Assembly: GCA_045221335.1 (NCBI GenBank)
Contig: JBGUWS010000014.1
Location: 70,261 to 134,260 of the forward strand
Source: Alphaproteobacteria bacterium
Lineage (GTDB): Bacteria; Pseudomonadota; Alphaproteobacteria; RF32; CAG-239
Reading direction: 5' to 3'
Length of the DNA stretch: 64,000 nt
Part shown: positions 4,376 to 57,377 of the stretch, in pieces
How the letters are laid out: each line of letters opens with the position of its first letter
How positions within the stretch are numbered: the first letter of the stretch is position 1
Notes under the pieces: generated by a model
Databases searched by the model: none
What the model saw: only the letters and a program-made list of their open reading frames with translations
What the model was told of the DNA's origin: nothing
Program-made: the position numbers and the translations under genes

Positions 4376-4378
4376 GCT

Positions 4379-6058: not shown

Positions 6059-6062
6059 TCAG

Positions 6063-7835: not shown

Positions 7836-7903
7836 TAACTTATTTGTTAAACGGCACTCTGCATTGAGTGTCGTTTGGCAATATATCAGATAAAAGGTGA
7901 GAG

Positions 7904-8389
7904 ATGAAAAAAGTATTACTTTTGGTTTTGTTATTGACTGCTTGCACATATCAGCAAACGATTTCTTCATATCATAAAATTGATACTAATGCTCGGACAG
8001 TTGCCGTTGATAGCACTAACATGACAGATATACACTTTGATTTTAAACGAGCTTTAACAGAAGCAGGGTTTGAGATTTACAATAAAAATAATAACGGATA
8101 TGCCGCACGTTATGAGCTTTCCGATGATATTCATAAAGATGATAATGTCAGATGTGGTTTATGGGAAGAAGGCTATACTTATGAGATAACGTTTATTGAT
8201 AAAGTTAAAAAGGCTGAAGCTTTCGGTATACAAGGGCAAGGTTGTCGGGAAAATATCTTAAAAGATTTTACAGCGCTAATCAATAATCGCTACGATGAAA
8301 AGGAGAAAACGGTTGATAAACCTGAAAATAGTGATGCTATGAAAGTTCCAACTTTAAGATCTGATGGCAGAACCTGGTGGGGTAACTGA
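7904..8389 (+). CDS. Lipoprotein of unknown function
   Basis: Signal peptide with lipobox LLTAC; 161 aa. No recognisable domain. Confidence 0.5.
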   Translation: MKKVLLLVLLLTACTYQQTISSYHKIDTNARTVAVDSTNMTDIHFDFKRALTEAGFEIYNKNNNGYAARYELSDDIHKDDNVRCGLWEEGYTYEITFIDKVKKAEAFGIQGQGCRENILKDFTALINNRYDEKEKTVDKPENSDAMKVPTLRSDGRTWWGN

Positions 8390-8561
8390 GGTAGGTAAAT
8401 TTTCTATCCTTCCTCATTTTTTATTAAGGCTTATACTTAATAAAATTATTTCTTTATTTTCAAAGATTAAAACTTTTTTAAGTGCTATATTATATAAAAA
8501 CACTGGATTAATTTATCAAAAATGATTATAGAAATAAAAAGAACAAACGAAAGATGAATAT

Positions 8562-10034: not shown

Positions 10035-12625
10035 TAAAAGTACAAACACTAGAAGACTTAGATAAACTGATAGATCGTGTCCATATTGCACAAAATCAAT
10101 TTGCCACATTTTCAGAGGAAAAAGTTGATGCTATTTTTAAAGCAGCAGCCAAAGCAGCTAATAAAATGCGAATTGATTTGGCAGAAATGGCCGTTGAGGA
10201 AACGGGCATGGGCGTATTAGAAGATAAAATCATCAAAAATCATTTTGCCTCAGAATACATATATAACAAACATAAAGGCGTAAAAACGTGCGGTATAATC
10301 AGTAAAGATAAGACCAACGGTATCAAAGTCGTTGCAGCACCATTAGGTGTACTGGCAGGAATTGTTCCGACGACAAATCCGACCTCTACTGCAATTTTTA
10401 AATCTTTAATATGCTTAAAAACCAGAAATGGAATAATTTTTTCGCCCCACCCGAGAGCAAAAAAATCAACAGTAGCAGCGGCAAAAGTTGTATTGGATGC
10501 AGCAGTTAAAGCTGGCGCACCAAAAGACATAATTGGATGGATAGAAGAACCGTCAATAGAATTATCAAATGCCTTAATGACACATCCGAAAATTCAAGGA
10601 ATTCTAGCAACAGGTGGTCCTGGAATGGTAAAAGCGGCGTATTCAAGCGGTAAACCAGCTTTAGGTGTTGGCTCCGGAAATACACCGGCCATAATTGATG
10701 AAACCGCAGATATTAAATTAGCCGTATCTTCAATTTTAATGTCAAAAACATTCGATAATGGTATGATATGTGCATCAGAGCAATCAATAATAGTTGTGCA
10801 AGATGTCTATGAAGAGGTCAAAAAAGAGTTCATTTATCGCGGTGCCCATTTATTAAATCCGAAGGAGACGGAAGCATTAGGTAAAATCATACTAATTAAC
10901 GGTAGTGTTAATGCGAACATTGTTGGTCAACCAGCACATAAGATTGCATCCATTGCCGGATTCAAAGTTCCTGAAGAATCAAAAATTCTTTTGGCAGAAC
11001 AAACAGATTATAGTCCGAAAAATCCATATGCACATGAAAAACTTTCTCCGATTCTAACCATGTATAAGGCAAAAGATTTTGAATCTGCAACCGAAATAGC
11101 CTTAGCATTAGTAAATAACGGTGGGCTAGGGCACACATCTGTTTTATATACAGATAACAGAATACAGGATAGAATAGATTTTTATGCTAACAAAATGCCA
11201 ACCGGTCGTATTTTAATTAACTCTCCAGCTTCTCAAGGTGGTATTGGAGATTTATATAATTTTCGGTTAGAACCATCGTTAACTCTAGGTTGTGGTTCAT
11301 GGGGTGGCAATTCAGTAAGCGAAAATGTTGGTGTTAAACACCTATTAAACTATAAGACAGTGGCAGAAAGGAGAGAAAATATGTTATGGTTTAGAGTTCC
11401 TCCAAAAATTTATTTTAAGCGTGGATCTACAGAGTTAGCATTGCGTGAATATGAAAATAAAAAACGTGTCTTTATCATAACAGACAGATTCTTGTTTGAT
11501 TCAGGGGCCGTGCGGACGATTACTGACACATTTGAAGAAATGGATATAGACTATCAAATTTTCTTTGATGTTAAGCCTGACCCGACCATATCAACAGCAG
11601 AGCAAGCGTTTACTATGGTTAAAACCTATCAGCCGGATTTAATTGTGGCTTTAGGTGGTGGATCGCCAATGGACGTTGCTAAAATTATATGGTTAATGTA
11701 TGAACAGCCTGAAACAAATTTTGAAGATATTTCAATGAGATTTATGGATATCAGAAAACGTATTTGTTCCATTCCTGAATTAGGCAAAAAAGCAGATTTA
11801 GTTTGCATTCCGACAACATCCGGAACAGGCTCTGAAGTAACACCGTTTTCAGTCATAACAGATGATAAAACACATGTAAAATATGCAATTGCAGATTATG
11901 CCTTAACCCCAAAAATGGCGATTATAGATGCCAATTTTGTTGATGGCATGCCAAAATCTCTGACTGCAGCCGGAGGAATTGATGCATTAGTTCATGCTTT
12001 AGAAGCATATGTATCCGTTATGGCAACAAACTATACTAATTCTCTAGCTTTAGAAGCTATCAAACAAATTTTCCGTTATTTACCAGATTCTTATAAAGAT
12101 GGTGCTAACAATCCCAAAGCACGAGAGAAAATGCACAATGCAGCAACAATTGCCGGCATGGCCTTTGCAAATGCATTTTTAGGCCTATGTCACTCCATGG
12201 CTCACAAACTTGGTGCTATGTATAATATTCCTCATGGTATTGCAAATGCGCTGTTAATTTGTCAGATCATTCGCTTCAATGCAACGGATTGTCCTAAAAA
12301 ACAAGCTGCATTTCCACAATACAAAGCACCAGAGGCCAAAAAGCGTTATGGTCAGATTGCTCATGTTTTATATTTGGCCGATGAAGATGTTCCAGATGAT
12401 GAAAAAGTAAATCGTTTGATTAAGGCTGTTGCTCAATTAAAAGAACAAATAGGTATTCCGGCATCTATTCACGAATGGGGCATTGATGAAAAGACATTTA
12501 AGGATAATTTAGATGAACTTGTAAGATTAGCCTTTGATGATCAATGCACGGGTGCAAATCCGGTATATCCGTTAATGAGCGATATCAAACAAATTTACTT
12601 AGATGCCTATGAAGGTAAATACTAA
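10031..12625 (+). CDS. adhE: Bifunctional acetaldehyde-CoA/alcohol dehydrogenase
   Basis: 864 aa. N-terminal ALDH domain (catalytic Cys in ICASEQS) and C-terminal iron-containing ADH domain ([10 protein letters not shown]; His-rich metal site [14 protein letters not shown]). Confidence 0.9.
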
Positions 12626-13403: not shown

Positions 13404-16400
13404 ATGTGTAAGTATCGTCGTTCTGAAATAGGTTTGTTAAACAGAAGATATCGCAGTGTATTAAAAAAATGCCTGCTGATTAATTGCGGATTGCTCCTTG
13501 TTTCGTCTCCTGTACAAGCTGAAGTATTACCGGTTTTAGGCGATAGCAGTGTAGTTGAATATCAACTGGGTAGCGAAGATGATTACACGTTCAAACTTAT
13601 CGAAAATGGTGTCACCACGTATTATAAGATAAATATTTTAACCGACCTGCTGGATAGCAACCATATTTTGTGGGATAAGGTAGCATCCGCTGGTGAAAAT
13701 ACAATAGGTATAACTCTGCCGCATAATGGTACCGGCACAGAAACGATGTACTTAAAATACTCATATGATGGTAGTGAATGGGGAGCAAGTGTCAGTAACT
13801 TTAAGGATAATACAGTTAGAGCAGCAGCTACGGCTTCCTCTTATACACCCGATAATCCTTTTCCTTTAACTGGTATAACAGATACACAAAAGAAAGTCCT
13901 ATCAGGATTGTACACATATGATAATAAGGTTTACGAAGGAAACTATGTAACCCCGATTGTGCGTCAAAATAGAAGCGGTGGTACAATTTATGCTGCGTTG
14001 TATGGAACAGCACTAAGCAACGTAGTAAATCCAAATAATGAAACTGATTTACATAAAGATCTTGGTGATCTAACTGCTGATTTTATTAATAACTATGTGG
14101 ATGCGGTATCCACAAATTTATCAAGTACAGGTGCAGTTGTCAAGGTGGGTTCATCCTCTAATCTATACATATACGGTGGAGCAGCAGGTAACCCCGGTGC
14201 GATTACGGTGCCATCCGGCGGTGATTTAATAACATCTGATCCTAGTTCTATTCAAAGCTTAACAGGAGAATTTATTGGGAACTATATTACCGGAACGGCC
14301 ATTGTTGCAGATGATGATACAGCAACTTCATTACTGGGAGCTTATGGCGGAGCTCTGGGTAATAGAGGAATAATCGGAACCATTACCGGCTCTTTTATAA
14401 ATAACTACATTGATGTAACAGCAACCGGCGATGGAGCTACAGCCTATGGCTTTGGTGGTGCAGTTTATAACCATGGCACAATCACAACACTTAATGCCAA
14501 TTTCTTATCAAATTATGCAGATCATGGTGGTGCAATTTATAATGATGGAGAAATCACCACCTTATCAGGTAATTTTATTGGTAATAGGGCAACCAACGGA
14601 AATGGTGGCGCAATACATGGTGCCGGCTTTGAAAACATTAATGGTGACTTTATTTCAAATGAAGCCAATGGTAATGGCGGTGCTATCAGTGTAGAGGCTG
14701 AAAACGGCGGGATAATAGAAAATCTACGCGGAGAATTTATAGCCAATCAGGCACTCGATGGTAATGGTGGCGCTTTGTTTATCGGTAATCAATCCGGTGT
14801 TGAACAAGTAACAGGTAATTTTATTGGCAATATAGCAAACTCGGATGGTGGTGCTATCTATATAGAAGACACAGACGAAGCAACGAACATTGTTGCTGAT
14901 ACAGCAGATGTTCTGTTTAGTAATAATACAGCTAATGACAGATATAATGATATCTATCTAAAAGATGTTGAAAATTTCGGATTAAACGCAGCATCAAACC
15001 ATACCATTACATTTAATGGTACAATCGAAGGCGAGACCACTTCAGATACTGTTTTTGCCAATATCAATAGAGGTTCATCAAATACCGGTGGAACTTACGC
15101 TTTTAATAACGAAGTTTCAGGTTTAGGACTGCGTGTTTACAATGGTGCACAAATTAAATTAGGTGTTCATGAGCAGTCAGATGGGACAACAACCGATGGA
15201 TATCTCAATTTGGAAAGTTTTGAAAATGATGCCCAAGGCGGTGAAATCGATGCTATAAACGGAGTATACCGCACGCAGATTTTGGGTAGCAATGTGAAAT
15301 TATTATCAGACTTGGATTATAAAATTGATATTTTAGTTGAAAATAATCTGGTAACCATTTCTGATATGATACAAATTGCATCAACAGACCAGGATTCCGT
15401 TGGTTCCATCAATTTGACAGATATTTTATTTGCCGGTGCATCAGAGGGTGAAGCACTTTATTTTGAAGGCAAGAAACAGATTATCAATAATACCGGTAGC
15501 AATGCTGTTACGCTAAAATTAGCTCAAGAATACACGGCCACAGCTGAAAGCCTTGTAACCGATAAGCTATCTATTGATTCTAAGGATATAAATTGGGATA
15601 CAGGTGTTTATCTCTATGATGAAAGGACTGTAGATTCTAAAAAGTTGGTAGCTGTCGAAGGAGAAAGCGGAATTGTTGACAGCATTGAATGGGTAGACAA
15701 TGGTTCCTTAAGCCCGACAGAAGAAAATATCCGCAATTATGATGCCTTAGTATTCTTGCATCAGACGGATATGTTTGGTACCAATGAAAAGACATTCACG
15801 GATAATTCAACCGGAACCTATAACTTAACAGAAAATCTTGGAGAAACTTATGGCTCTCTATCTGTTATAGGACAAGGTGCAGATGCATCAACATTGAATA
15901 TGAACGGTCATCAAGGTTTTGAAATTGGTGACGGGGCAACCGTAAAATTAGACGGTATATCGGTTAATAGTAATAAAGCCGTGACCTTAGCAGAAGTATC
16001 TGAAGGCGGCTTGCTAAAATTGAATAATGTAGAAATTGCAAGCCCGAAACTGTTTATAACCAATGATGAAAATTTAGAACTAAGCGGTTCTAATACACTT
16101 AATGGTATGATAGATGGTGAGGGAACAACAACAGTTACCGGCGGAGAAACAACCCTAAATGCAGATATCATTCAAGATAATTTGATTATTGCTGACGGTA
16201 CATTAATAACCAATGCAGATAATCTGGAAATTGCTAATGATATTCAAAATGACGGAACATTAACACTAACCGGTGGTAATTTAAGTCAAGGTGTTACCAA
16301 AGCAACAACCGGTGAAGGTGAAGTAACATTAGAAAATAATGTTGTTTTAGCTAATGGTGGTTCTATTTCTGATAATAAATTGGATCTCAAAGATCATAAA

Positions 16401-18824
16401 TTAAGTGTAGAAAACACCGGTGATAATGTACTGGATCTATCCGAATTCAAAAATGAAGCAGGAGCAGAGTTAGATACACAAAACGGTGCCACCCAAAACT
16501 TAAATTTAGGCCAAGCTCTGATTGATAATTTGGAATATGCCTTAGATGTTGATTTAAGTGGTGACGGTACCGCTGATACTTTAACGGTTGCGGATAATTC
16601 AAGCGGAACAGTTAAAATAACATCATTAAATTTCCTCAATCCAACAGCTCCGAATAAGGAATTTGAGATTAATGTTATCAATGGTAGCGGTGTAACTTTA
16701 GAGTTAGATAGAGCTATTACCGCATCTATGTATGCTATCGGAACAACTAGCGAAAGCAAAGCAGATACAATTGCTGCAAATACCTTGTATAATCCGGAAG
16801 GTAATTACTTTGAATATGTAAGACAAGGAGATGTTTTAGGTAAAATAGACTTAACCGAGGATCAGACTGGTATTAAATTAGAAGCAAATGATGTGATCTG
16901 GGGAACATGGGAAAAAGGTGATCCTCTTGGCGATACTATGATGCTTGTCAATACGGATGAAACAAATAGTGTCAAAACCTTCAATTTTGCTACACCTGAT
17001 GATAATTATCAGATCAGCGATAACTTAGGAGCAACAAAAGGTGATTTGGCTGTCAATGGTGTCTCATCAGATAACGGTAAGTCAACTTTAGATTTAAATG
17101 GCCATAGCGGATTTGAGGTAGATGAAAACGCAAGTTTGACTATCCGCAATACCAATGTTATTGGTCAAAATGCCATTGTTTCAAGCGGAGAAGTTACATT
17201 AGATAACACAGATGTTGAAACAGTCACCAACGATGGTACCTTAAATATTGCCAATAATACCACATTTGATGAAATCAGCGGTACTGGAGAAACAAACATC
17301 ACTTCTGATTTGGATTTAGGTGATGGTAAAATATCAGGTAATACGGTCAATGCCACGAATGGTACGGTTAAAGTTGGCAGCAATAATTTGGATCAAGATG
17401 TTGTGCTCAATGCTAAAAATGGTTCAACAATCGAGATTGCAAACAACACTGTTAACATAAAAGAAGCTAATTTTGATCAAGGCTCTGCTTTATCACTTAA
17501 AGTTAATAGTTTAAGTGACTACGGTTCACTTATTGCTAACACAATTAATGTTGAACAAAATGCAACATTAAAAGCAACATTAGCACAAGGGTTGATGGAA
17601 GAAGGGCAGGAGGCAACAATTCAATTGCTCGTTGCAGACAACGATGACTTTAACAACTTTACCGATCAGTTTGAAAACAATATGTATAGTTTTGAAAAAG
17701 ATGGTACCAATGGTGCATATAAAGTAAGAAAAATCAAGACAGCTGATGATGTTGCTAAAGAATATGGAGGAACAAGGACCAATCAAGAAGCAGCAAAGGC
17801 CTACATTGAAGGCGATAGATTTCCTGATGGAGCATCAGGTGAAATTGCCGATGGTCTTGCTGATCTCGCTCAAAATGATGCCAAAGGTTTGTTAAAAGCC
17901 CTAACAGCACTGGCCCCTAATGATTCTCCAGTGTTACAAGGTGTTGTCAGCTATCAGGATGATATCCTGTTTCGTACAGTAGCTCAGCATTTACGTCAGG
18001 CTAAGGATGATAATGTACTGTTACAGAGCTTAACGGATGGATTGTCCTTATGGGTTCGTACATATATGGGAACATCTAAATTAAATGATCATGCCGGTAT
18101 CTATGGATTTGATATGGATAGCAAAGGTATTATCGCTGCGCTTGAAAAGAAGTTGACATCAGTGCTTAAAGCCGGTTTAGGTTATCATTATGATAAGGCA
18201 GATGTAAGCGCTTACTCTCGTGATGTTGATGTTGAGATGAATAAAATATTTGCCTATGCAGAATATAAACCAAGCCAGTTATTTATGCACGCAACAGCAG
18301 GCTACGGCATGTCAGATTATAAAGAAGATAAAATGGCATTAGGTAACACCTATAAAGCTAAGTATGACGTTGATACATTTTCAATGCAAGCTTTAGTTGG
18401 TTACGAACAGGATTACATAACCCCTGAAGCAGGATTAAGATATTATCACATCAAGCGTCGCGGATATAATGATAGCGCAATGCAAAAAGTATCTTCTAAG
18501 GATATGAATGTCTTAGCCGCAGTGGCTGGTTTAAGGGCCGGCAAGGATTATACATTGCCGTCAGGCTACACATTAAGACCGGAAGCTTATATCGGTGTTG
18601 TATATGATATAGTCAGCGATCGTGACAATGCAATTGTAAACTTGGCAAATGGTTCAAGTTATATGGTACATGGTCAAAACTTAAACAAATTTGGTGTAGA
18701 ACTTGGTGCCGGCTTAACAGCAAAATTAATGGATAGTTTATCATTAAATGTCAGCTACATGGGTGGCTTCCGTAGAGATTACAGAAATCATACTGGTATG
18801 ATTGGCTTAAGGTACGACTTCTAA
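13404..18824 (+). CDS. Type Va autotransporter (1806 aa) with Pmp/POMP-repeat beta-helical passenger and C-terminal beta-barrel translocator
   Basis: Signal peptide. Repeated FxxN / GGA[IL] motifs (FIGNRATNGNGGAIHG, FISNEANGNGGAISV, FIANQALDGNGGALFI). C-terminal ~280 aa with autotransporter beta-domain character ending in aromatic ...GLRYDF. Confidence 0.85.
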   Translation: MCKYRRSEIGLLNRRYRSVLKKCLLINCGLLLVSSPVQAEVLPVLGDSSVVEYQLGSEDDYTFKLIENGVTTYYKINILTDLLDSNHILWDKVASAGENTIGITLPHNGTGTETMYLKYSYDGSEWGASVSNFKDNTVRAAATASSYTPDNPFPLTGITDTQKKVLSGLYTYDNKVYEGNYVTPIVRQNRSGGTIYAALYGTALSNVVNPNNETDLHKDLGDLTADFINNYVDAVSTNLSSTGAVVKVGSSSNLYIYGGAAGNPGAITVPSGGDLITSDPSSIQSLTGEFIGNYITGTAIVADDDTATSLLGAYGGALGNRGIIGTITGSFINNYIDVTATGDGATAYGFGGAVYNHGTITTLNANFLSNYADHGGAIYNDGEITTLSGNFIGNRATNGNGGAIHGAGFENINGDFISNEANGNGGAISVEAENGGIIENLRGEFIANQALDGNGGALFIGNQSGVEQVTGNFIGNIANSDGGAIYIEDTDEATNIVADTADVLFSNNTANDRYNDIYLKDVENFGLNAASNHTITFNGTIEGETTSDTVFANINRGSSNTGGTYAFNNEVSGLGLRVYNGAQIKLGVHEQSDGTTTDGYLNLESFENDAQGGEIDAINGVYRTQILGSNVKLLSDLDYKIDILVENNLVTISDMIQIASTDQDSVGSINLTDILFAGASEGEALYFEGKKQIINNTGSNAVTLKLAQEYTATAESLVTDKLSIDSKDINWDTGVYLYDERTVDSKKLVAVEGESGIVDSIEWVDNGSLSPTEENIRNYDALVFLHQTDMFGTNEKTFTDNSTGTYNLTENLGETYGSLSVIGQGADASTLNMNGHQGFEIGDGATVKLDGISVNSNKAVTLAEVSEGGLLKLNNVEIASPKLFITNDENLELSGSNTLNGMIDGEGTTTVTGGETTLNADIIQDNLIIADGTLITNADNLEIANDIQNDGTLTLTGGNLSQGVTKATTGEGEVTLENNVVLANGGSISDNKLDLKDHKLSVENTGDNVLDLSEFKNEAGAELDTQNGATQNLNLGQALIDNLEYALDVDLSGDGTADTLTVADNSSGTVKITSLNFLNPTAPNKEFEINVINGSGVTLELDRAITASMYAIGTTSESKADTIAANTLYNPEGNYFEYVRQGDVLGKIDLTEDQTGIKLEANDVIWGTWEKGDPLGDTMMLVNTDETNSVKTFNFATPDDNYQISDNLGATKGDLAVNGVSSDNGKSTLDLNGHSGFEVDENASLTIRNTNVIGQNAIVSSGEVTLDNTDVETVTNDGTLNIANNTTFDEISGTGETNITSDLDLGDGKISGNTVNATNGTVKVGSNNLDQDVVLNAKNGSTIEIANNTVNIKEANFDQGSALSLKVNSLSDYGSLIANTINVEQNATLKATLAQGLMEEGQEATIQLLVADNDDFNNFTDQFENNMYSFEKDGTNGAYKVRKIKTADDVAKEYGGTRTNQEAAKAYIEGDRFPDGASGEIADGLADLAQNDAKGLLKALTALAPNDSPVLQGVVSYQDDILFRTVAQHLRQAKDDNVLLQSLTDGLSLWVRTYMGTSKLNDHAGIYGFDMDSKGIIAALEKKLTSVLKAGLGYHYDKADVSAYSRDVDVEMNKIFAYAEYKPSQLFMHATAGYGMSDYKEDKMALGNTYKAKYDVDTFSMQALVGYEQDYITPEAGLRYYHIKRRGYNDSAMQKVSSKDMNVLAAVAGLRAGKDYTLPSGYTLRPEAYIGVVYDIVSDRDNAIVNLANGSSYMVHGQNLNKFGVELGAGLTAKLMDSLSLNVSYMGGFRRDYRNHTGMIGLRYDF

Positions 18825-26145: not shown

Positions 26146-27087
26146 ATGTCTAACAATCCTGATTTATCAATTATCGTTCCAATGTATAATGAGCATGAGG
26201 TTATAGATATTTTTTTCAAAGAAATTAGAGCAATTATGAAGAAAATTCCGCAGTACAGTTATGAGATTGTCTGCATAAATGATGGTAGCAAAGATAATAC
26301 ATTAGAAATTCTAAAAAAATATGCTAAAAAGGATAAAAGAGTAAAAATCATCAGTTTCTCCAGAAATTTCCATAAAGAGCAAGCTCTTTTTGCAGGTCTA
26401 GAGAATTGTACTGGAAATGCGGCTATTCCGATAGATGTTGATTTACAAGATCCTCCAGAGGTTATACTAAAATTTGTAAAAAAATGGAAAGAAGGATATG
26501 ATATTGTTTATGGCGTCCGCTCCGAAAGAAATAATGATGGTATGATTAAAAGATTTACAGCCTTAGCTTTTTACAAAATCTACAATTTTATTGCAGATTC
26601 TCCTGTGCCTTATAATACCGGAGATTTCAGATTAATCAATCGTAAGGTCATTGATGCTATCAAAAACATTAAAGAAAAGAAATTATTTATGAAAGGAATT
26701 TTCAATTGGGTCGGATTTAAATCCATAGGTGTTCCCTATAAGAGGCCAGAAAGAGCCGCCGGTAAAACTAAGTGGAACTATTGGAAATTGTGGAATTTCG
26801 CTCTGGATGGCATAACAGCATCAACAACTTTTCCTTTAAGAATATGGACATATGTCGGTGGAACCATTGCCGGAATTTCTTTTTTGTATGCTCTTTACAT
26901 TATTTTAAGAACCATCATTAAAGGTGTAGCTGTTCCGGGATACGCCTCATTGTTAGTTTGTGTTTTATTTTTTGGCGGAATACAACTTCTTGTACTTGGT
27001 ATATTCGGTGAGTATATAGGTCGTATATTTACGGAAGTCAAAAACAGGCCACTTTATATCATTGATGAAAAAATTAATTTTGACTAA
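26146..27087 (+). CDS. GT2 family polyprenyl-phosphate glycosyltransferase (GtrB/ArnC/DPM1-like)
   Basis: N-terminal GT-A domain (IIVPMYNE, DGSKDNT, DVDLQD = DxD) and two C-terminal TM helices; 313 aa. Confidence 0.8.
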   Translation: MSNNPDLSIIVPMYNEHEVIDIFFKEIRAIMKKIPQYSYEIVCINDGSKDNTLEILKKYAKKDKRVKIISFSRNFHKEQALFAGLENCTGNAAIPIDVDLQDPPEVILKFVKKWKEGYDIVYGVRSERNNDGMIKRFTALAFYKIYNFIADSPVPYNTGDFRLINRKVIDAIKNIKEKKLFMKGIFNWVGFKSIGVPYKRPERAAGKTKWNYWKLWNFALDGITASTTFPLRIWTYVGGTIAGISFLYALYIILRTIIKGVAVPGYASLLVCVLFFGGIQLLVLGIFGEYIGRIFTEVKNRPLYIIDEKINFD

Positions 27088-27261
27088 AAGGGTATTGTAT
27101 CAAAAAAATAAGCTCTTTTTTCATTAATTTGGAAAACGCGCCCATTTTTTTTAGAAAATCGAAAACAATAAAAGTGTAACCCTTAAATTATAAAATTATT
27201 AATATTTTTTTTTATCATACAATCAGTTTTGGTAAATAATTTTATAGAAAGGGCCAGCAAT

Positions 27262-27579
27262 ATGGATAATGAGAATAAGGGACTTAAAATAGAACAAACA
27301 AGAGAAGGTTATATGTTAACATGCAAGTTGACAGGATGGCTTGATCCGAATACTTCTCCTGATTTAGTATCAAAGTTAGACTTAAAGGATATAAATATAC
27401 TGGTTTTTGATATGAAAGATGTTGAATACGTGTTTTCATCAGGTATTCGTGCATTTTTAATGTTGCAAAAGATGTTGGAACCTGTCAATGGAACAGTCAA
27501 ATTAATCAACATTTCGGATGATATCCGTAATATTTTTGAATATGCCGGTTTAGAAAGTATGTTAGACATTAAAGCATGA
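27262..27579 (+). CDS. STAS-domain anti-sigma-factor antagonist (HsbA/RsbV/SpoIIAA-like)
   Basis: STAS fold with the conserved phospho-serine context VFSSGIRAFL. ATG at 27262 chosen (GAAAGGG RBS); the ORF track begins at TTG 27229. Its stop overlaps the next gene's start (ATGA). Confidence 0.7.
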   Translation: MDNENKGLKIEQTREGYMLTCKLTGWLDPNTSPDLVSKLDLKDINILVFDMKDVEYVFSSGIRAFLMLQKMLEPVNGTVKLINISDDIRNIFEYAGLESMLDIKA

Positions 27580-29933
27580 TGAAATCTTTCAAATTTTGGA
27601 TAAGTAAACACTCTCTCAAATTTAAGCTAAACGCTGGTATTTTAACATTTATCTGTGTAGCTTTTTTGAGCTTGGCTATATTTATTTCAAAATATTCGGC
27701 ACCAATTCTTAAAGCTCAATTAGATGATAATGCTCAAAAGTCAATTGAAACTTATGTGGCAGATTTTACCCATTTGACTGTGCTGGCAGAACGAGTGATA
27801 TTAAACACAAAAAACACACTCAGTCAGATGTCTGAAGATAATATTAATGCCATCAGGATGCTGTTAAATTCCGCCATAAAAACAGTTATTCATACGGATT
27901 TAGATTTTACGAATGCCTGGCTGTATGTTTTTAATCCTGAAGATGTATCTTCCGGGGATTTATATATCAGTACAGATTATGATGAAGATAATGTCATCGA
28001 CTTTAATGTGGAACATATTAGTAATCTATATGACAGATTTCCATGGTTTAAGGAAGTTCCCAAAAAAGAAGATATTTATTGGTCTGAACCATACTTAGAT
28101 ACCAAAACAAATAAAACGGTTTTTACATGTCTCATACCATTTAAGTTTATCAAACAGACAGATTTTAACGGATTGCTTGCTCTAACAATTGACTTAACTG
28201 ATATCCAAGAAAGTATTAATAATTTCTCATTTTATGAAACCGGAAAATTGATTTTGCTATCAAGAACCGGGTTATACGTAACTTATCCGGATCCTGATGT
28301 GGCCCTGAAACTAACTATTTTTGAATTGGCTGATAAACTTAACGAACCAAAATTAAATTTTATCGGTCAAGAACTTTTAGCCGGACGCGGTGGTCAGGTT
28401 ATCCTTCCAAAGGTTCCCGTTTTCAAAAACTCTCCGGCGGTTTTCTTCTATGCGCCGATAAAAAACTTAGGTTGGGGTTTTGGGCTTGTATATGCTCAAC
28501 ATGAATTTCTAAAGCCGATAAGGCAATTTCAAATCATTATTGCTATTGCTTTACTGGTGAGTGTGCTCTTGTTGATGCTGTTGATCAATTGGATTTGTCA
28601 TTATTCTACCAAACAATTGCTGACACTAAGTCATATTGCTGCACAATATGGTCGTGGAAATTTTGCGCAGAATTTTAAGTTCATACCGGATTCATCTGAT
28701 ATAGGAACTCTTGCTAAGGCGTTATCAAACATGCGGACAAACTTGCTTAATTACCTTGATAAAGAAAGGAAAGCCGCCTCAGAGGAACAAAAAAATCAAA
28801 GTGAATTAGATATTGCAAGACACATTCAAAAATCAGCTTTATCGACAACATATCCAGAAAATTCCGCCTTTAAGATTGCTACCACCATGATACCTGCCAG
28901 ACAAGTTGGGGGAGATTTTTATGATTTCTTCTTTGTTGATGAAAACAAATTTGCGATTGTCATTGCAGATGTCTCCGGCAAAGGAATACCTGCCGCATTA
29001 TATATGATGAAAGCCATTACACTAATAAAAAACATGAGCCGAAGTAAGCGGAGCTTAGATTTTATATTTCAATGTATTAACGAGCAGCTGTGTGAAGGAA
29101 ACGATACCTGCATGTTCGTAACAGCTTTTATGGCATTTATAGATTTGACAAATGGCGAAACAACATATGTTAATGCCGGTCACAATCCGCCGCTTATAGG
29201 TAATAAAGATGGCTATAAATTTATGACCCCAAAAAAGAACATTGTTTTGGGTATTAACCCTAAGGCGACTTTTGTAGAAGAAAAAATCAATTTAAGATTA
29301 GGTGATCATCTGTTTTTATACACCGATGGAGTAACGGAAGCCGAAAATAAATCTTGCAAATTTTATGGGGAAAATCGATTATTAAAAATTTTTGATAAAG
29401 CACATGATAAACCTCAAGATAATATTAATATGGTCCTAAAAAGTATTCAAAAATTTGTAAAAGAAAATCCTCAATCAGATGATATTACCATGCTTGATTT
29501 TGCTTTCTTCGGGCAAAAAGAAAATTTGCTAGAAATCGTCGCCACGATGAATAAATTAGGAAAAGTAGTAACTTGGCTGAAAAATGATATGATTAAACAT
29601 AATGTTTCTGCTAAAGCGCAATTTAATATGATAATGGCCGCTGAAGAAATATTCTCAAATATAGTGTTTTATGCATACCCCAAAAATGAAGAGGGAACTG
29701 TTAAAATTAAAACAGAGCTGAATGATAATATATATTCAGCAACTTTTATGGATAATGGAAAGAAATATAATCCGCTAAAAAATAAAGCTCCGGATACAAA
29801 GGCTGACATAAAAGACAGAAGTATTGGTGGATTAGGCGTGTTCTTAGCTAAGAAAGTTTCAGATACAATAACATATGCATACAAAGATGGATATAATATC
29901 CTAAAGATTGGTGTATATGCCGATAAAAAATGA
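27576..29933 (+). CDS. Membrane sensor: periplasmic Cache-like domain, HAMP, PP2C (SpoIIE/RsbU-type) phosphatase and C-terminal RsbW-type HATPase_c kinase (HsbR-like bifunctional partner-switch enzyme)
   Basis: Two TM helices flank a ~280-aa extracytoplasmic domain. PP2C motifs GGDFYDFFFVDENKFAIVIADVSGKGIPAALYM and YTDGVTEA. C-terminal anti-sigma-kinase-like ATPase (NMIMAAEEIFSNIV..., GGLGVFLAKK). Confidence 0.7.
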   Translation: MMKSFKFWISKHSLKFKLNAGILTFICVAFLSLAIFISKYSAPILKAQLDDNAQKSIETYVADFTHLTVLAERVILNTKNTLSQMSEDNINAIRMLLNSAIKTVIHTDLDFTNAWLYVFNPEDVSSGDLYISTDYDEDNVIDFNVEHISNLYDRFPWFKEVPKKEDIYWSEPYLDTKTNKTVFTCLIPFKFIKQTDFNGLLALTIDLTDIQESINNFSFYETGKLILLSRTGLYVTYPDPDVALKLTIFELADKLNEPKLNFIGQELLAGRGGQVILPKVPVFKNSPAVFFYAPIKNLGWGFGLVYAQHEFLKPIRQFQIIIAIALLVSVLLLMLLINWICHYSTKQLLTLSHIAAQYGRGNFAQNFKFIPDSSDIGTLAKALSNMRTNLLNYLDKERKAASEEQKNQSELDIARHIQKSALSTTYPENSAFKIATTMIPARQVGGDFYDFFFVDENKFAIVIADVSGKGIPAALYMMKAITLIKNMSRSKRSLDFIFQCINEQLCEGNDTCMFVTAFMAFIDLTNGETTYVNAGHNPPLIGNKDGYKFMTPKKNIVLGINPKATFVEEKINLRLGDHLFLYTDGVTEAENKSCKFYGENRLLKIFDKAHDKPQDNINMVLKSIQKFVKENPQSDDITMLDFAFFGQKENLLEIVATMNKLGKVVTWLKNDMIKHNVSAKAQFNMIMAAEEIFSNIVFYAYPKNEEGTVKIKTELNDNIYSATFMDNGKKYNPLKNKAPDTKADIKDRSIGGLGVFLAKKVSDTITYAYKDGYNILKIGVYADKK

Positions 29934-30092
29934 TAGAGATTATTAAAGCTTGATTTTAAATAAAAATTACCATCTCTAATGTTTTTTGGTCTTTGGCCAA
30001 ATTAAGTCAGCGCATTAGAAATAAATTTCTGATTGCAATTCAAATAAAAAAGAGATAGGCTAAACCCACTAATGAAATTTGAGGGAAGTAAA

Positions 30093-30857
30093 ATGAAGCC
30101 TTACGAAGTAGCCTTACATAAATTTTTAGAACGTTACATTCATAAACCATGGTTTGAAGGAGCATTGCTTTGTGGCTCATATTCTTCCGGCAATGAGAAT
30201 AAATTTTCAGATATTGATGTGGTTATTGTTGCATCAAATGATCTTGGCTGGCAGGAAAAGTCAAATTGCTATGTTGATGGATTTTTAATGGAGTATACCA
30301 TAAATCCCATATACAAAATTGAAGAATTTATGCAATCAGGAATAGAGTATCGTTGTCTAACCGATCAGAATATGTTCGCCTATGGCGTTATCTTACATGA
30401 CAAACATGGTGTTATGAAAAAATTGCGGCAAAGATCTTTTCGTGATTTAAACAAAAAAATAAAACCCTTTTCCAAATACTCTAATGACTTTAAGAAATAT
30501 TATTTATGGGATAAATATGACGAGTTGCAATCACTAAAACATGACGGCTATCATACCGATTTGATTTATTGGAAACTAATCAATGATTTAATAGAAACAT
30601 ATTATGACTTTAAGTGTCTGCCGCATGTACCTCTATCCAAAATAGAAAAGATCCTGACCAACAAAGATTTTGCTAGAAGGTATCACGTAACACAGCTACC
30701 GGATAAGAAATTTAATGAATTACTAATGTCCTGTTTTAATGCTGATAAAAAAGAACAAATCAAAGTGGCACAAAAGTTATATGATTATGTTATGAAAGCA
30801 GGTGGCGGTTTTGATATAGGTCAATTTGTCGGCCGCAGAAAGGTAGAGAAAAAATAA
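30093..30857 (+). CDS. Polymerase-beta-type nucleotidyltransferase, aminoglycoside/lincosamide adenylyltransferase-like (ANT/Lnu-like)
   Basis: NTase motif GSYSSGNENKFSDIDVVIV (GS...DxD) at the N terminus plus a ~150-aa helical C-domain, a layout like KNTase/Lnu. Start chosen at 30093 (GAGGGAAG RBS). Substrate unknown. Confidence 0.45.
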   Translation: MKPYEVALHKFLERYIHKPWFEGALLCGSYSSGNENKFSDIDVVIVASNDLGWQEKSNCYVDGFLMEYTINPIYKIEEFMQSGIEYRCLTDQNMFAYGVILHDKHGVMKKLRQRSFRDLNKKIKPFSKYSNDFKKYYLWDKYDELQSLKHDGYHTDLIYWKLINDLIETYYDFKCLPHVPLSKIEKILTNKDFARRYHVTQLPDKKFNELLMSCFNADKKEQIKVAQKLYDYVMKAGGGFDIGQFVGRRKVEKK

Positions 30858-42400: not shown

Positions 42401-45400
42401 AATAGTAACCAATACGATAGATGGGGGTATAATTTATAACCAATCACAAATTAATTCTATTTCAGGAAAGATTATAAATAATTACATTGAATCTAAAAAT
42501 GCCACATTAAACGGGGGCGTATTATTTAATGATGCGTCTGGTAATATCTTAATGACATCGGATATAGAAAATAACTATGTCAAAGGGGCGGATATTACAA
42601 ACTCTGATGGTGGAATAATTTATAATAGTGGAACATTAACGCTTTCCGATGTTTCTCTTAAAGATAATGCAACAAATTTAGAAAACACAATTTCAAACAG
42701 TGGCAATCTTTCTATAATTGCGAATAATAAGGATGTCGTATTTGCCGGAAACAAAGTCGGTGCAACCATTACTAGAAACGAAACAACAGGAGAAGTTTCC
42801 GTTACGGGTGGAGATGCTTTAGATATAAGAAACAGTGGTAGCAGTGTGCTGAACTTATTTGCTAAAACAGGAAAATCGATAATTTTTGAAGGTGCAATTA
42901 CTGACGATGATAATCAAGCAACAGCAAATATTGGCGGAACATACGATGATAATGGAACAGAAAAAAATTATGAAGGTTCAGTAATATTTAAAAATACAGT
43001 CGCTCTCTCAACATTAAACATCAAAAATAATGCAAATATAATATTAGGAGTGAATGGCACACAATTTGGTTTATTGAATTTAGGAACTTTAACCAATGAT
43101 GCAAAAAATGGATCGATTAATAGTATAAATAATCATATTGAAAATCACCAAATAACGAAAGCCACATTAAATTCAGCCTTAAATATAGGAATAGATATGA
43201 GTGTGGCAACCGATCTAACAACAGAAGCGGATACATTTACTTTAGGTGCGGATAGCACGGGTACATTTAATATCGCAGATCTAAATATGCTCGGGGATGG
43301 TATAGCTGCTTTTAAGGCCTCCACAGAATCTAAAGAAATCATACAGAAAATATTAAATAATGCAAACAGCAACACCATATTAACTCTTTCTAATACGGTT
43401 AAATCCGCTTATGAAGAAGAAATAGCCGATGAACTTGTAGAAGACGTTGATGAAATTACTGGATCAACCGTTAAATATAATGAAAAGTATGGAGAATATG
43501 AACTTACACGTCAAAGAGCGTTGGAAGTATCAATTGTCGGTTCATCACAAGGATTGGCTGATGCAATCAGATGGGCAATAACAGTAACCGATAGTGATAA
43601 AATATATAAAGACGATACTTTGCATCTGATAAATATTGCATCAGGTACAAATAGGGTATTCGATTTTGATGGTACGACAAACACCTTTAATGTAACGGAA
43701 AATACAGGCACAACAGCTGTTGGTAAATTAACAATATTAGGTACGCAAAATGGTACTGCGTACTCAACAATAGATGCTGACGGGCACAGTTTGTTTGATA
43801 TAACGACCTCAGGGGCAGCCGTTGATATACAGAATACAAAAATTAAAAATGCAGAATACATAGCTGATGTCACAAGTGGTAATGTATTGACTTTAAGTAA
43901 CGTGATTATTGATAATACAAATACCAAAGGTATAACCGGAACAGGAACAACGGTCATATCAGGCGGTAAAACGGTATTAAGTGCAGAATCCAACCAAAAT
44001 TTATTGACAATTAATTCAAATGGTGAGCTAGAAAACAATGCAAAGTTCACATTAGCAGATAAAATTTCAAATTCAGGTACACTGACTTCAATTGCCGATA
44101 ATATAGTAACGGAAAATGGTATAGAAAATGAAGGAGTAATAAACTTTATCGGGGGAGAGAATTTAAATAATATCAGTGGTACAAACGGAACAGTTAATTT
44201 TTCTGATACATCAATAAATTCAGGAACAATAGAACAAAAAATAATCACTAATAGCAACAGTTTGACATCTGATGCCGGAACCTTGAAAGCATCAGCAGGC
44301 ATCCAAAATACAGGGAATTTATATCTGACAGGTGGTATAACACAGAGTATAATTTCAGGCGAAAATGGAACTATACATACCATGGGATCAGTAACAATTG
44401 GAAAAGCCATAAATAACAATGTGTTAAGTCTAGATAGTGGAAGTACAAAATTAGGTATAACAGATCTTTCAACAGCCCAAAAATTAGTCATAAACGGGGG
44501 AGATTTAAATCTACAGTATTTATCAAGTACAGAAGATTATAATTTAGGAAACGTTGAAATCTTGGAAGATATGGGACTGGGTATTGATGTCGATTTAACA
44601 GGAAACACCGCAATAAAGAAAGTTGATACAATATCTGCAACAACAGTTTCTGGCTCTAAAAAAATATATATCAATAACTTAAATATAACGGTTCCTAGTC
44701 CCGGAGATGAAGCCCCAACATATTCAAAAGTTGCAGATAATAATCTAAAAGACAGTGTAGATTTAGGCGATAATGCCAAAACACACGTTAACAATATATC
44801 ACAAAATGGTTTTATGATAACTTATGAAAAAGATACAGAAGGAGAAAATACGGGTGGTTTCTTACATCTGACCTACGCGGATCTGGTAACGGCAGCTCGT
44901 GCAACAACAAGATCAAGAATATATGTTATGGGCAGTGCTGATGAGGATGTTGTCAGCCAGTTAGACGAACAGGGTGGAACAGGAATAACAGATAATAATC
45001 ATTTGTTTGGAGGTGTATCTTTAAGTGTAAACGGTACAGGCATTCAATCAATAATTGGTAGTGGTACGACCGGTGGAATACAGTTAGCTGGAACACAAAC
45101 TTTAAGCTTAAATAACATTAAAGAATACACAGGGTTCTCAACGGGTATTACCAATTATGGTACGGTTAATGTCACAAATGTTGATTTTATTGGAAATACA
45201 ATAGATATAAATAATAATACAGTACTTAATTTGTATGGAACAGATGAGCTAAAAACAATAACAGGAGATACCGGTACAATTAATATTGCAAGTTATGTTG
45301 ATGGAGATAATCAAACCATTAATGCAGAAGTAACTTTTGCCACAGACGGAAATATTACTCAAAAAGATATAGTTATTGCAGAGAATAACGTCTTAGAAAA

Positions 45401-52905: not shown

Positions 52906-53022
52906 ACGTGGCCCTCGGTTAATGGTATAATCTTCTTTATTCTAAATAGAATGTGTTTAATAAAATGTAAAATCATTACTGAAAAACATATTAAATAGAC
53001 ATTATAACTGACATAAAAGAGC

Positions 53023-53100
53023 GCTTTGCGAGATAAAATTTGATTGTTTTTAACTTATGGGTGTTATGAACCAAAAGTTGATTATTTAAAATAATCAGCT
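53023..53100. repeat. Copy R2 of the ~85-bp repeat family
   Basis: gcgagataaaatttgattgtttttaacttatgggtgttatgaaccaaaagttgattatttaaaataatcagc. Confidence 0.55.
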
Positions 53101-53176
53101 AAAAAATAAATTTTAGAAACAAAAATTTAAGGATTTTTATCCTAAACTTTTAAAAAAGTTTAATTGTAGGTGTCAC

Positions 53177-53674: not shown

Positions 53675-53722
53675 AAAATATAACAAAAAAACGCCATTTC
53701 TGACGATTTTTGAACTGTGGTC

Positions 53723-53807
53723 GGAGTGAGCTTGCAGTTCTCGAGATAAAATTTTGCATGTTTTTAACTTATGGGTGTTAAGAACCAGAGGTGGAATTAA
53801 AATCAGC
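53723..53807. repeat. Copy R3 of the ~85-bp repeat family
   Basis: ggagtgagcttgcagttctcgagataaaattttgcatgtttttaacttatgggtgttaagaaccagaggtggaattaaaatcagc. Confidence 0.55.
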
Positions 53808-57354: not shown

Positions 57355-57377
57355 AACCTATCGATTCTTTTTTTTCT

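What the first reader, a model, noticed from the sequence alone, without database searches (positions are those of the whole stretch)
27262..29933. Partner-switching module with a Cache/HAMP-PP2C-HATPase fusion and no adjacent sigma factor
The STAS gene is translationally coupled (ATGA) to a 785-aa membrane protein. That protein carries a periplasmic Cache-like sensor, HAMP, an RsbU/SpoIIE-type PP2C phosphatase and an RsbW-type kinase domain in one polypeptide. This is analogous to Pseudomonas HsbR/HsbA, but with an extracytoplasmic sensor instead of a receiver domain. The output target, whether a sigma factor or another protein, is not encoded nearby.
Basis: partly seen in the sequence, partly recalled or inferred. 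Interest (0 to 1): 0.5.

Follow-up and report, generated by a model that had tools for sequence, protein, structure and literature searches.

The report
Membrane sensor phosphatase-kinase with STAS partner
A small STAS switch protein and a membrane sensor that carries both the phosphatase and the kinase acting on it form a real, conserved two-gene signalling cassette, but it is an uncharacterised member of a very common bacterial family, not a new kind of system.

Summary
A 105-aa STAS gene (27262..27579) overlaps by ATGA a 785-aa gene (27576..29933). That protein reads TM1, periplasmic dCache, TM2, HAMP, signalling helix, PP2C phosphatase, RsbW-type kinase.

All catalytic motifs are invariant in 120 full-length homologues (40-88% identity, gut or bioreactor "Alphaproteobacteria bacterium" MAGs). 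These are the PP2C metal-binding Asp residues and the GHKL N, G1 and G2 boxes. STAS Ser59 aligns with the phospho-Ser of RsbV and SpoIIAA, and it is Ser in 87 of 87 STAS domains encoded within the ~10-kb flanks of related loci.

In 8 of 8 relatives examined the STAS gene sits directly upstream while every flanking gene differs. No sigma factor lies in the 64-kb window, and essentially none lies within 10 kb in 87 related loci.

The PP2C-kinase fusion is very common: 6,790 cluster representatives at E<=1e-30, with varied N-terminal sensors. Unfused three-gene versions exist in other phyla. The best structural match is M. tuberculosis Rv1364c (RsbU+RsbW domains).

New here: a sharply conserved 24-nt element (27185..27208) upstream of the STAS gene in the window and four of its closer relatives.

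Verdict: a sound partner-switching reading, a new member of a known kind, with ligand and output unknown.

The parts
27185..27208 (+). Conserved 24-nt upstream element AAATTATAAAATTATTAATATTTT (consensus AWATTAT-NNANNTN-TTAATATTTT); probably the operator or promoter element of the cassette
   Evidence: It occurs exactly once in the window and once each in L081, L084, L088 and L089. Its 3' end always lies 46-57 nt upstream of the STAS ATG, although the upstream genes differ. Mean pairwise identity is 0.84 in this block against 0.25-0.31 in the flanking 24-nt blocks. No other site exists in the 64-kb window even with 3 mismatches. It is absent from the more distant relatives L082, L085, L086 and L087, which instead carry TTGAC(A/T)-N17-TAnnnT. 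Its function is inferred only.
27218..27223 (+). Candidate -10 hexamer TACAAT, 9 nt after the conserved element
   Evidence: Read directly from the sequence. The four relatives have TAGAAT, TAATAT, TAGAAT and TATTAT 5-6 nt after the element. There is no good -35 hexamer. This is a consensus resemblance only.
27262..27579 (+). STAS single-domain protein (105 aa), anti-sigma-antagonist type; the phospho-acceptor Ser59 codon is 27436-27438
   Evidence: Pfam STAS 39.5 bits; TIGR00377 scores 44.3 bits, which is below its cutoff. A profile of 7 orthologues matches RsbV (6M36_B, E 1.9e-13) and SpoIIAA. Ser59 lies in the column of RsbV 'DS*TG' and SpoIIAA 'DS*SG'. Ser59, Gly61 and Arg63 are invariant in orthologues. 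The Ser is present in 87 of 87 STAS domains encoded in the related loci.
27576..29933 (+). 785-aa membrane sensor with fused PP2C phosphatase and RsbW-type Ser kinase
   Evidence: Intact ORF. More than 120 full-length homologues at 40-88% identity share the same Pfam string. The AF2 model has mean pLDDT 85.7.
27633..27695 (+). TM1 (aa ~20-40)
   Evidence: Kyte-Doolittle hydropathy; part of helix 14-82 in the model.
27708..28511 (+). Periplasmic double-Cache (dCache_1) sensor domain (aa ~45-312)
   Evidence: Pfam MCP-like_PDC_1 and dCache_1. PDB sequence hits to the Mlp24, PctA and Mlp37 ligand-binding domains. Foldseek hits to dCache ligand-binding domains with TM-score 0.7-0.78 relative to the target. 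The amino-acid-binding motif is not intact (one search compared with PMC8915833).
28527..28595 (+). TM2 (aa ~318-340)
   Evidence: Hydropathy; helix 313-359 in the model.
28596..28751 (+). HAMP domain (aa ~341-392)
   Evidence: Pfam HAMP 20.3 bits, below the gathering score of 25. PF00672 is recorded for many homologues. NCBIfam WalK and NarX alignments cover aa 310-408. The model shows helix-loop-helix. Y358, G361 and F363 are invariant or nearly invariant.
28752..28868 (+). Signalling helix / coiled-coil linker into the phosphatase (aa ~393-431)
   Evidence: Continuous helix 374-421 in the model. E410, I413, I417 and Q418 are invariant. A coiled-coil linker is the known regulatory element of RsbU-type PPM phosphatases (PMC12143880).
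28869..29507 (+). PP2C/PPM (SpoIIE-RsbU type) Ser phosphatase domain (aa ~432-644)
   Evidence: Pfam SpoIIE 160 bits. D447, D465, D584, D635 and D636 are invariant within GGDFYD, ADVxGKG, YTDG and SDD. Foldseek hits: RssB, SiaA PP2C, SpoIIE.
29526..29918 (+). RsbW/SpoIIAB-type GHKL Ser kinase (anti-sigma-like) domain (aa ~651-781)
   Evidence: Pfam HATPase_c_2 53.9 bits. NCBIfam RsbW models match below their cutoffs. A profile of this domain hits RsbW 6M36_A at E 7e-8, with N-box, G1 and G2 aligned. E691, N695, D726, G751, G752 and G754 are invariant in 120 sequences. The top Foldseek hit is 3KE6, the RsbU+RsbW domains of Rv1364c.

Best explanation
This is a self-contained two-gene partner-switching cassette. 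One transmembrane protein senses an extracytoplasmic ligand and sets the phosphorylation state of its own STAS partner.

Shown by sequence, structure prediction and comparison: the topology (N-in, periplasmic dCache, C-in); an intact HAMP-like transducer and signalling helix; a PP2C domain with all metal-binding aspartates; an RsbW-type kinase domain with all ATP-binding boxes; a STAS protein whose Ser59 sits in the phospho-acceptor position; translational coupling; strict co-inheritance of the two genes.

Inferred mechanism: the C-terminal kinase domain phosphorylates STAS Ser59 using ATP. Ligand binding at the dCache domain is passed through TM2, HAMP and the coiled-coil linker to switch the dimeric PP2C domain on or off, so the signal sets the ratio of STAS to STAS-P. 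As in RsbV/RsbW and CrsA/CrsR, unphosphorylated STAS then binds the kinase domain.

The output is encoded elsewhere. Either a sigma factor held at the membrane by the kinase domain is released (CrsR/RsbW-like; my estimate about 45%), or the STAS protein itself acts on a non-sigma target (SypA/HsbA/RbaV-like; about 40%).

The ligand is unknown and is probably not an amino acid or amine.

The stated confidence covers the statement that this is a bifunctional phosphatase/kinase sensor controlling STAS Ser59 phosphorylation. It does not cover the identity of the ligand or the output.
For: Domain calls and motifs. The AF2 model with pLDDT 85.7 shows the expected domain order. The top PDB fold hit is the RsbU+RsbW didomain of Rv1364c. 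Ser59 aligns with the phospho-Ser of RsbV and SpoIIAA and is Ser in 87 of 87 STAS domains.

The STAS gene lies immediately upstream in 8 of 8 relatives despite unrelated flanks. Unfused three-gene versions (sensor-PP2C plus a ~140-aa kinase plus STAS) occur in other phyla, which shows the fusion joins two proteins that work together.

Functional precedent for fused PP2C-kinase regulators acting on a STAS partner: HsbR/HsbA and CrsR/CrsA (PMC6482189) and SypE/SypA (PMC8256260). Precedent for linker-mediated control of PPM phosphatases by HAMP and other sensor domains: PMC12143880.
Against: No biochemical data exist for any member of this dCache-type family. HAMP is below Pfam's threshold in this particular protein. 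No target was found: there is no sigma factor in 64 kb or in the relatives' flanks, so the switching step itself is untested. In the related fusion Rv1364c, loss of kinase activity has been reported (title of Sachdeva et al. 2008, seen in the reference list), so conserved domains do not guarantee activity. Here, however, all ATP-binding boxes are invariant.
Confidence: 0.8

Rival explanations
1. Anti-sigma reading (a sub-variant of the best explanation). The membrane-anchored kinase domain is a true anti-sigma factor that holds a distally encoded sigma factor. Dephosphorylated STAS displaces it. The target could even be the primary sigma factor, as reported for Chlamydia RsbW and sigma-66.
For: The kinase domain is most similar to RsbW. 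CrsR and HsbR, which have the same PP2C-kinase didomain, bind RpoS (PMC6482189). The Chlamydia Rsb network controls the primary sigma factor (PMC4552016). In one relative (L087) rpoD lies convergently 324 nt downstream.
Against: No sigma gene is linked in the window or in 87 related loci, apart from that single rpoD case and one gene 9 kb away in L037. For the alphaproteobacterial RbaV/W/Y system no cognate sigma factor could be found, and R. capsulatus lists no SigB/SigF-type sigma factor (PMC3999984). The rest of this genome was not available.
Confidence: 0.4
2. STAS-as-effector reading. The kinase and phosphatase only write and erase the mark. The STAS protein, in one phospho-state, binds and regulates a non-sigma target such as an enzyme, a diguanylate cyclase or an envelope or polysaccharide protein.
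For: Precedents: SypA acts on an unknown non-sigma target (PMC8256260). HsbA binds FlgM or HsbD (PMC6482189). A STAS domain regulates a glycosyltransferase in Anabaena (PMC13555669). RbaV appears to be the determinant output (PMC3999984). The STAS subfamily here carries an invariant Arg63 (S-x-G-x-R) where RsbV and SpoIIAA have Gly.
Against: No candidate target is conserved next to the cassette. The GT2 gene upstream in the window is absent from all 8 relatives.
Confidence: 0.35
3. The neighbouring glycosyltransferase (GT2, 26146..27087) or the nucleotidyltransferase-like gene (30072..30857) is the regulated target, so the locus is a local envelope-modification switch.
For: GT2 ends 174 nt upstream on the same strand. 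There is literature precedent for STAS control of a glycosyltransferase.
Against: Neither neighbour is conserved. The nearest relatives (75% and 78% identity) have CstA/AdhE or unknown/Nudix genes in those positions, and the six others differ again. The conserved upstream element lies between GT2 and the STAS gene and travels with the cassette.
Confidence: 0.04
4. The protein is a degenerate or misannotated sensor, for example a histidine-kinase relative or a pseudo-enzyme, and the STAS adjacency is incidental.
For: NCBI names homologues only as 'SpoIIE family protein phosphatase'. HAMP is below threshold.
Against: There is no HisKA/DHp domain. All catalytic residues of both enzymes are invariant over 120 sequences down to 40% identity. 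STAS adjacency is 8 of 8 in close relatives, and 61 of 80 distant loci carry a STAS ORF within the ~10-kb flanks.
Confidence: 0.02

Closest known systems
HsbR/HsbA (Pseudomonas aeruginosa) and CrsR/CrsA (Shewanella oneidensis)
   Same: One polypeptide carries a PP2C phosphatase followed by an RsbW-type kinase/anti-sigma domain. It acts on a separately encoded single-domain STAS protein. No sigma gene is in the operon (PMC6482189).
   Different: Their input is a cytoplasmic receiver domain fed by a phosphorelay. Here the input is a transmembrane dCache-HAMP module, so the protein is its own receptor.
Rv1364c / MursiF (Mycobacterium tuberculosis), PDB 3KE6
   Same: It has fused RsbU-like PP2C and RsbW-like kinase domains, and it is the best structural match to the model (Foldseek E 1.5e-19).
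   Different: Rv1364c is cytoplasmic, has a PAS input and also fuses the STAS domain. Sequence identity is only about 19%.
Unfused Cache-HAMP-PP2C + RsbW-like kinase + STAS operons (Bacteroidota, Ignavibacteria, Fibrobacter, Desulfobacterota, Synergistota)
   Same: These have the same sensor and phosphatase architecture (26-37% identity) and the same three activities, and they also lack a linked sigma factor.
   Different: The kinase is a separate gene of about 135-147 aa. An NMT1/THI5-like binding-protein gene often lies upstream (8 of 20 loci), and it is absent here.
Chlamydia RsbU/RsbW/RsbV
   Same: A membrane sensor phosphatase with a periplasmic domain controls STAS proteins. No dedicated alternative sigma factor is in the locus, and the primary sigma factor is the proposed target (PMC4552016 and PMC11619594).
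   Different: The kinase is a separate protein and there are two RsbV paralogues. Similarity of the sensor domain was not tested here.
SypE/SypA (Vibrio fischeri)
   Same: A dual Ser kinase/phosphatase controls a STAS protein whose target is not a known sigma factor (PMC8256260).
   Different: As I recall, the SypE domain order is kinase-REC-phosphatase. It is cytoplasmic and sits within a polysaccharide locus.
RbaV/RbaW/RbaY (Rhodobacter capsulatus)
   Same: An alphaproteobacterial partner-switching set in which rbaW overlaps rbaV and no cognate sigma factor has been identified (PMC3999984).
   Different: It consists of three separate proteins, and the phosphatase has a REC input and is encoded elsewhere.

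Membership tests
RsbU/RsbW/RsbV-type partner-switching module | Single-domain STAS protein with a conserved phospho-acceptor Ser | tested here: met
   Pfam STAS. Ser59 aligns with the phospho-Ser of RsbV and SpoIIAA. It is invariant in 9 orthologues and in 87 of 87 STAS domains from the related loci.
RsbU/RsbW/RsbV-type partner-switching module | RsbW/SpoIIAB-type GHKL Ser kinase with N, G1 and G2 boxes | tested here: met
   HATPase_c_2 at 53.9 bits. A profile of the domain hits RsbW 6M36_A at E 7e-8 with the motifs aligned. E691, N695, D726, G751, G752 and G754 are invariant in 120 sequences.
RsbU/RsbW/RsbV-type partner-switching module | PPM/PP2C phosphatase with metal-binding aspartates | tested here: met
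   SpoIIE at 160 bits. D447, D465, D584, D635 and D636 are invariant. Fold hits to RssB, SiaA and SpoIIE.
RsbU/RsbW/RsbV-type partner-switching module | Cognate sigma factor (or other switch target) identified | tested here: not met
   No sigma family matches any window ORF. A phmmer search with RpoD finds none in the window and only 2 hits in 87 loci.
RsbU/RsbW/RsbV-type partner-switching module | Phosphorylation-dependent exchange of binding partners | not testable with these tools
   This needs biochemistry or multimer modelling.
HsbR/CrsR family (REC-PP2C-kinase response regulators) | N-terminal receiver domain fed by a phosphorelay | tested here: not met
   No Response_reg hit. The N-terminal half is TM-dCache-TM-HAMP.
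HsbR/CrsR family (REC-PP2C-kinase response regulators) | PP2C followed by a kinase/anti-sigma domain, with an adjacent STAS gene | tested here: met
   architecture as described in PMC6482189.
HAMP-containing transmembrane receptors | HAMP domain immediately after TM2 | tested here: inconclusive
   20.3 bits against a gathering score of 25 in this protein. PF00672 is recorded in many homologues. The helix-connector-helix in the model and the GNF...DIGxL motif agree with a HAMP domain.
dCache_1AA amino-acid sensors | AA_motif Y121-R126-W128 ... Y144 ... D173 (PctA numbering; PMC8915833) | tested here: not met
   In the alignment to PctA, R126 corresponds to F155 (F or Y across the family), Y129 to F158, and D173 to T204 (T or S across the family). 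Only W157 and Y173 are kept. Motif definition.
Two-component histidine kinases | HisKA/DHp phospho-acceptor domain before the ATPase | tested here: not met
   No HisKA hit. The ATPase is HATPase_c_2 and is preceded by PP2C.

The most novel reading that the evidence does not exclude
In these gut Alphaproteobacteria, which as alphaproteobacteria may lack SigB/SigF-type sigma factors, the cassette may be a one-protein transmembrane serine-phosphorylation pathway. It would be functionally parallel to a two-component system. Its STAS output would control either the housekeeping sigma factor (as proposed for Chlamydia) or a non-transcriptional target. The conserved 24-nt upstream element would be the site through which the pathway autoregulates.
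Probability: 0.15. Interest if true: 0.55.

Novelty: new member of a known kind. Interest (0 to 1): 0.3.

Why it matters
It adds a well-defined family to the catalogue of partner-switching systems: more than 120 sequence clusters, apparently confined to uncultured gut or bioreactor Alphaproteobacteria. In this family one membrane protein combines receptor, phosphatase and kinase. That makes it a compact model for how extracytoplasmic signals reach STAS proteins without a two-component relay.

The comparison with unfused three-gene versions in other phyla documents the gene fusion. The consistent absence of a linked sigma factor underlines that the outputs of most such systems are unknown. None of this is unexpected to specialists. 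The practical value lies in correct annotation and in pointing to a testable ligand and target question.

Tried and rejected
1. Source contig. The exact protein P0001 is not on record in the look-up of encoding contigs, and cluster look-up gave no accession or name. The rest of the genome could therefore not be searched for sigma factors.

2. Genome-contig scan. This was useful for family breadth but not for the close clade.

3. Metagenome scan with the 24-nt motif. It returned 120 AT-rich stretches, none encoding STAS or the fusion protein. These are chance matches, so no regulon information was gained.

4. Motif elsewhere in the window. There are no further sites even with 3 mismatches.

5. 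Rfam on 26900..30200 found nothing.

6. Terminator scan. No convincing intrinsic terminator follows either gene, so the 3' end of the operon is undefined.

7. GT2 or the nucleotidyltransferase-like gene as target: rejected because neither is syntenic (and others).

8. Amino-acid or amine ligand: rejected because the AA_motif is broken.

9. Histidine-kinase reading: rejected because there is no HisKA domain.

10. TTG start at 27229 for the STAS gene: rejected in favour of ATG 27262, which matches the orthologue N-termini and the 105-aa protein on record.
Full report
OBSERVATION

The coordinates are exact. A 105-aa ORF runs from ATG 27262 to TGA 27577-27579. The next ORF starts at ATG 27576, so the junction reads GCATGATGAAA with a 4-nt overlap, and it runs to 29933 (785 aa).

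Pfam assigns STAS to the small protein (39.5 bits). On the large one it finds MCP-like_PDC_1 plus dCache_1 (aa 101-302), SpoIIE/PP2C (aa 456-640, 160 bits) and HATPase_c_2 (aa 656-777, 54 bits). NCBIfam adds sub-cutoff matches to RsbW, SpoIIAB, SpoIIE, SiaA and RssB.

HAMP scores 20.3 bits, below Pfam's gathering score of 25. Three things still support it. The segment shows the canonical GNF connector and DIGxL AS2 motif. The AlphaFold2 model folds it as helix-loop-helix. PF00672 is recorded for many homologues.

Hydropathy shows only two membrane segments, aa ~20-40 and ~318-340, which places aa 41-317 outside the cytoplasm. The AF2 model, built from 120 sequences, has mean pLDDT 85.7. Its domain order is TM1/stalk helix 14-82, dCache 90-311, TM2 plus HAMP 313-421, PP2C 432-644, kinase 651-781.

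ARE THE ENZYMES AND THE SUBSTRATE SITE INTACT?

The database search returned more than 120 full-length homologues at 40-88% identity with the same domain string. Those that carry a name are called 'SpoIIE family protein phosphatase [Alphaproteobacteria bacterium]'.

- Phosphatase: in the 120-sequence alignment the PP2C signature residues are invariant. These are D447 (GGDFYD), D465 (ADVxGKG), D584 (YTDG) and D635/D636 (SDD).
- Kinase: the GHKL residues E691 and N695 (N box), D726 (G1) and G751/G752/G754 (G2) are also invariant. G728 of the G1 box is invariant in the 20-sequence alignment and conserved in at least 90% of the 120 sequences. A profile of the C-terminal domain finds B. subtilis RsbW (6M36_A, E 7e-8). 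The window's EEIFSNIVFYAY, FMDNGKKYN and IGGLGVFL align with RsbW's SEACTNAVQHAY, ADEGDSFD and EGGLGLYL.
- Substrate site: a profile of seven STAS orthologues finds RsbV, SpoIIAA and TM1442. Ser59 in YVFS*SGIR falls in the column of the phospho-serine of RsbV (DS*TG) and SpoIIAA (DS*SG). Ser59, Gly61 and Arg63 are invariant in the orthologues. Across all 87 STAS domains found in the window and in related loci, that column is Ser in 87 of 87.

CONTEXT

Eight relatives were looked up, spanning 42-78% identity (L081-L089). In every one a ~100-aa STAS gene lies directly upstream, overlapping the start codon or ending within about 3 nt of it. Every flanking gene differs between loci:

- MreCD/PBP2/RodA
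- RelA-SpoT/ACPS with FtsH
- an Aas-type gene (Acyltransferase + AMP-binding)
- a PHP gene
- MatE/SodB
- a TPR gene with a convergent rpoD
- CstA with AdhE/hydrogenase
- an unknown gene with a Nudix gene

The window's own neighbours are GT2 (26146..27087) and a nucleotidyltransferase-like gene (30072..30857). Neither is conserved. The pair therefore behaves as a self-contained cassette.

No Pfam sigma family matches any non-overlapping window ORF of 100 aa or more. A phmmer search with the RpoD of L087 against all ORFs of the window and 87 loci found only that RpoD itself and one gene 9 kb away in L037.

HOW COMMON IS THE ARCHITECTURE?

A genome scan found relatives in many phyla: Bacteroidota, Clostridia, Spirochaetota, Fibrobacterota, Desulfobacterota, Ignavibacteria, Synergistota and Proteobacteria. 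Of these 80 loci, 61 have a STAS ORF within the flank held, up to 10 kb.

Simple gene calling showed that many of these are unfused. A sensor-HAMP-PP2C gene of ~640-700 aa is followed or preceded by a separate kinase gene of ~135-147 aa and a STAS gene (L026, L029, L050-L052, L058, L064, L071, L073). Others are fused as in the window (L004, L014, L015, L019, L025, L040, L066, L067).

A Pfam census of 119 neighbours of 20 such loci is led by STAS (13), HATPase_c_2 (11) and NMT1/THI5-like binding proteins (8). No sigma family appears among the 25 families listed, out of 131 matched.

An exhaustive search with only the PP2C+kinase half found 6,790 cluster representatives at E<=1e-30. All of the best 150 carry the PP2C+kinase region near the C-terminal end of proteins of 369-1021 aa, and 148 of them match it as one contiguous stretch. 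The fusion is thus attached to many different N-terminal sensors.

The best solved-structure match to the model is 3KE6, the RsbU+RsbW domains of M. tuberculosis Rv1364c.

SENSOR SPECIFICITY

The nearest solved dCache domains by sequence are the amino-acid chemoreceptors Mlp24, PctA and Mlp37. The amino-acid motif defined by Gumerov et al. is Y121, R126, W128, Y144 and D173 (PMC8915833). It is not intact here. R126 corresponds to F155 (F or Y throughout the family), Y129 to F158 and D173 to T204 (T or S in the family). Only W157 and Y173 are kept. An alpha-amino-acid or amine ligand is therefore unlikely, and the ligand remains unknown.

A NEW DETAIL: A CONSERVED UPSTREAM ELEMENT

Aligning the regions upstream of the STAS gene revealed a 24-nt block, AAATTATAAAATTATTAATATTTT (27185..27208).

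- Its consensus AWATTATNNANNTNTTAATATTTT occurs exactly once in the window and once each in L081, L084, L088 and L089. It always ends 46-57 nt before the STAS ATG, although the upstream genes differ.
- Mean pairwise identity is 0.84 in the block and 0.25-0.31 in adjacent blocks. The 10-nt core has a background density of about 2e-5 per nt in these loci. Five co-positioned copies are far beyond chance.
- A -10-like hexamer follows it (TACAAT at 27218..27223 in the window), but there is no good -35 hexamer.
- The four more distant relatives lack the block. They show TTGAC(A/T)-N17-TAnnnT instead.

I read the block as an operator or promoter element that belongs to the cassette in this subclade. 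That is inference. It has no other copy in the 64-kb window, and a metagenome scan for it returned only chance matches.

MECHANISM

Shown: the anatomy, the intact catalytic sites, the acceptor serine, translational coupling and co-inheritance.

Inferred from established knowledge of RsbU/V/W, SpoIIE/AA/AB, HsbR/HsbA, CrsR/CrsA (PMC6482189), SypE/SypA (PMC8256260) and linker-mediated control of PPM phosphatases (PMC12143880):

1. The kinase domain phosphorylates Ser59.
2. Ligand occupancy of the dCache domain is relayed through TM2, HAMP and the signalling helix to the dimeric PP2C domain, which removes the phosphate.
3. The resulting STAS/STAS-P ratio is the output.
4. Unphosphorylated STAS probably binds the kinase domain.

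It cannot be decided here whether this releases a sigma factor held at the membrane (the CrsR/RsbW model) or whether STAS itself regulates another protein (the SypA/HsbA/RbaV model). In the alphaproteobacterium R. capsulatus, a related Rba system has no identifiable cognate sigma factor (PMC3999984).

COMPARISON AND NOVELTY

The system works like HsbR/HsbA and CrsR/CrsA but is not a member of that receiver-containing family. Structurally its cytoplasmic half resembles Rv1364c. Its closest evolutionary relatives are unfused Cache-HAMP-PP2C/RsbW/STAS operons.

Cache-linked serine phosphatases are a recognised receptor class (PMC4822843). HAMP-linked PPM phosphatases have been noted since Mittenhuber 2002 (cited in PMC12143880). 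I found no paper describing a characterised dCache-HAMP-PP2C-kinase protein.

It is therefore a new, uncharacterised member of a known and very common kind. The missing sigma factor is typical of this class and not anomalous.

Interest is modest (0.3). What remains open is the ligand, the target and the meaning of the conserved upstream element.

Noticed in passing
window 13404..18824, 32966..38428, 39432..50438: Three giant genes lie in the window. Two are autotransporters (1806 aa and 3668 aa, each with a C-terminal beta-domain). The third is an 1820-aa protein whose only Pfam hit is an N-terminal M48 peptidase segment (aa 44-120). A 1773-aa protein with a faint M48 hit also lies about 7 kb from the STAS/fusion pair in relative L089.
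   Followed up: partly
window 3896..12625: A cluster encodes a 2Fe-2S thioredoxin-like ferredoxin, a NuoF-like subunit, two [FeFe]-hydrogenase-type proteins and AdhE. This indicates a fermentative anaerobe. The same cluster sits directly next to the STAS/fusion pair in relative L088, which shows local rearrangement around the cassette.
   Followed up: partly
window ~53000..61500: GC content dips to 0.255 at 54001-56000. The region holds orphan ORFs, a NOV_C-domain protein, a Fic/DOC protein, a type I restriction HsdR gene (57501..59987) and an N6_Mtase fragment (59938..60432), and it ends at tRNA-Gln (61425..61499). It is probably a defence or mobile island.
   Followed up: no
L004, L019, L026, L050, L064, L067 and others (gene directly upstream of the sensor phosphatase): In distant homologues, NMT1/THI5-like periplasmic binding-protein genes are among the neighbours in 8 of 20 loci, and by gene size this appears to be the ~305-330-aa gene immediately upstream of the Cache-HAMP-PP2C gene. 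This hints at a co-sensor or transporter link. It is absent from the window.
   Followed up: no
L011, L014, L017, L028, L031, L034, L045, L050, L065: Mostly in Clostridia-type loci, a protein of about 390-420 aa with a STAS domain accompanies the small STAS gene and the PP2C-kinase gene. It may be a second STAS-bearing component or an output.
   Followed up: no
L087 12664..14745 (-): The housekeeping rpoD gene lies convergently 324 nt downstream of the fusion gene in one relative. This is a single case and probably coincidental, but it is worth noting given the Chlamydia RsbW/sigma-66 precedent.
   Followed up: partly
L081, L084, L087: An Aas-type gene (Acyltransferase + AMP-binding, with an added MFS domain in L087) lies within a few kb of the cassette in three relatives, in differing positions and orientations. 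It is not present near the cassette in the window.
   Followed up: no
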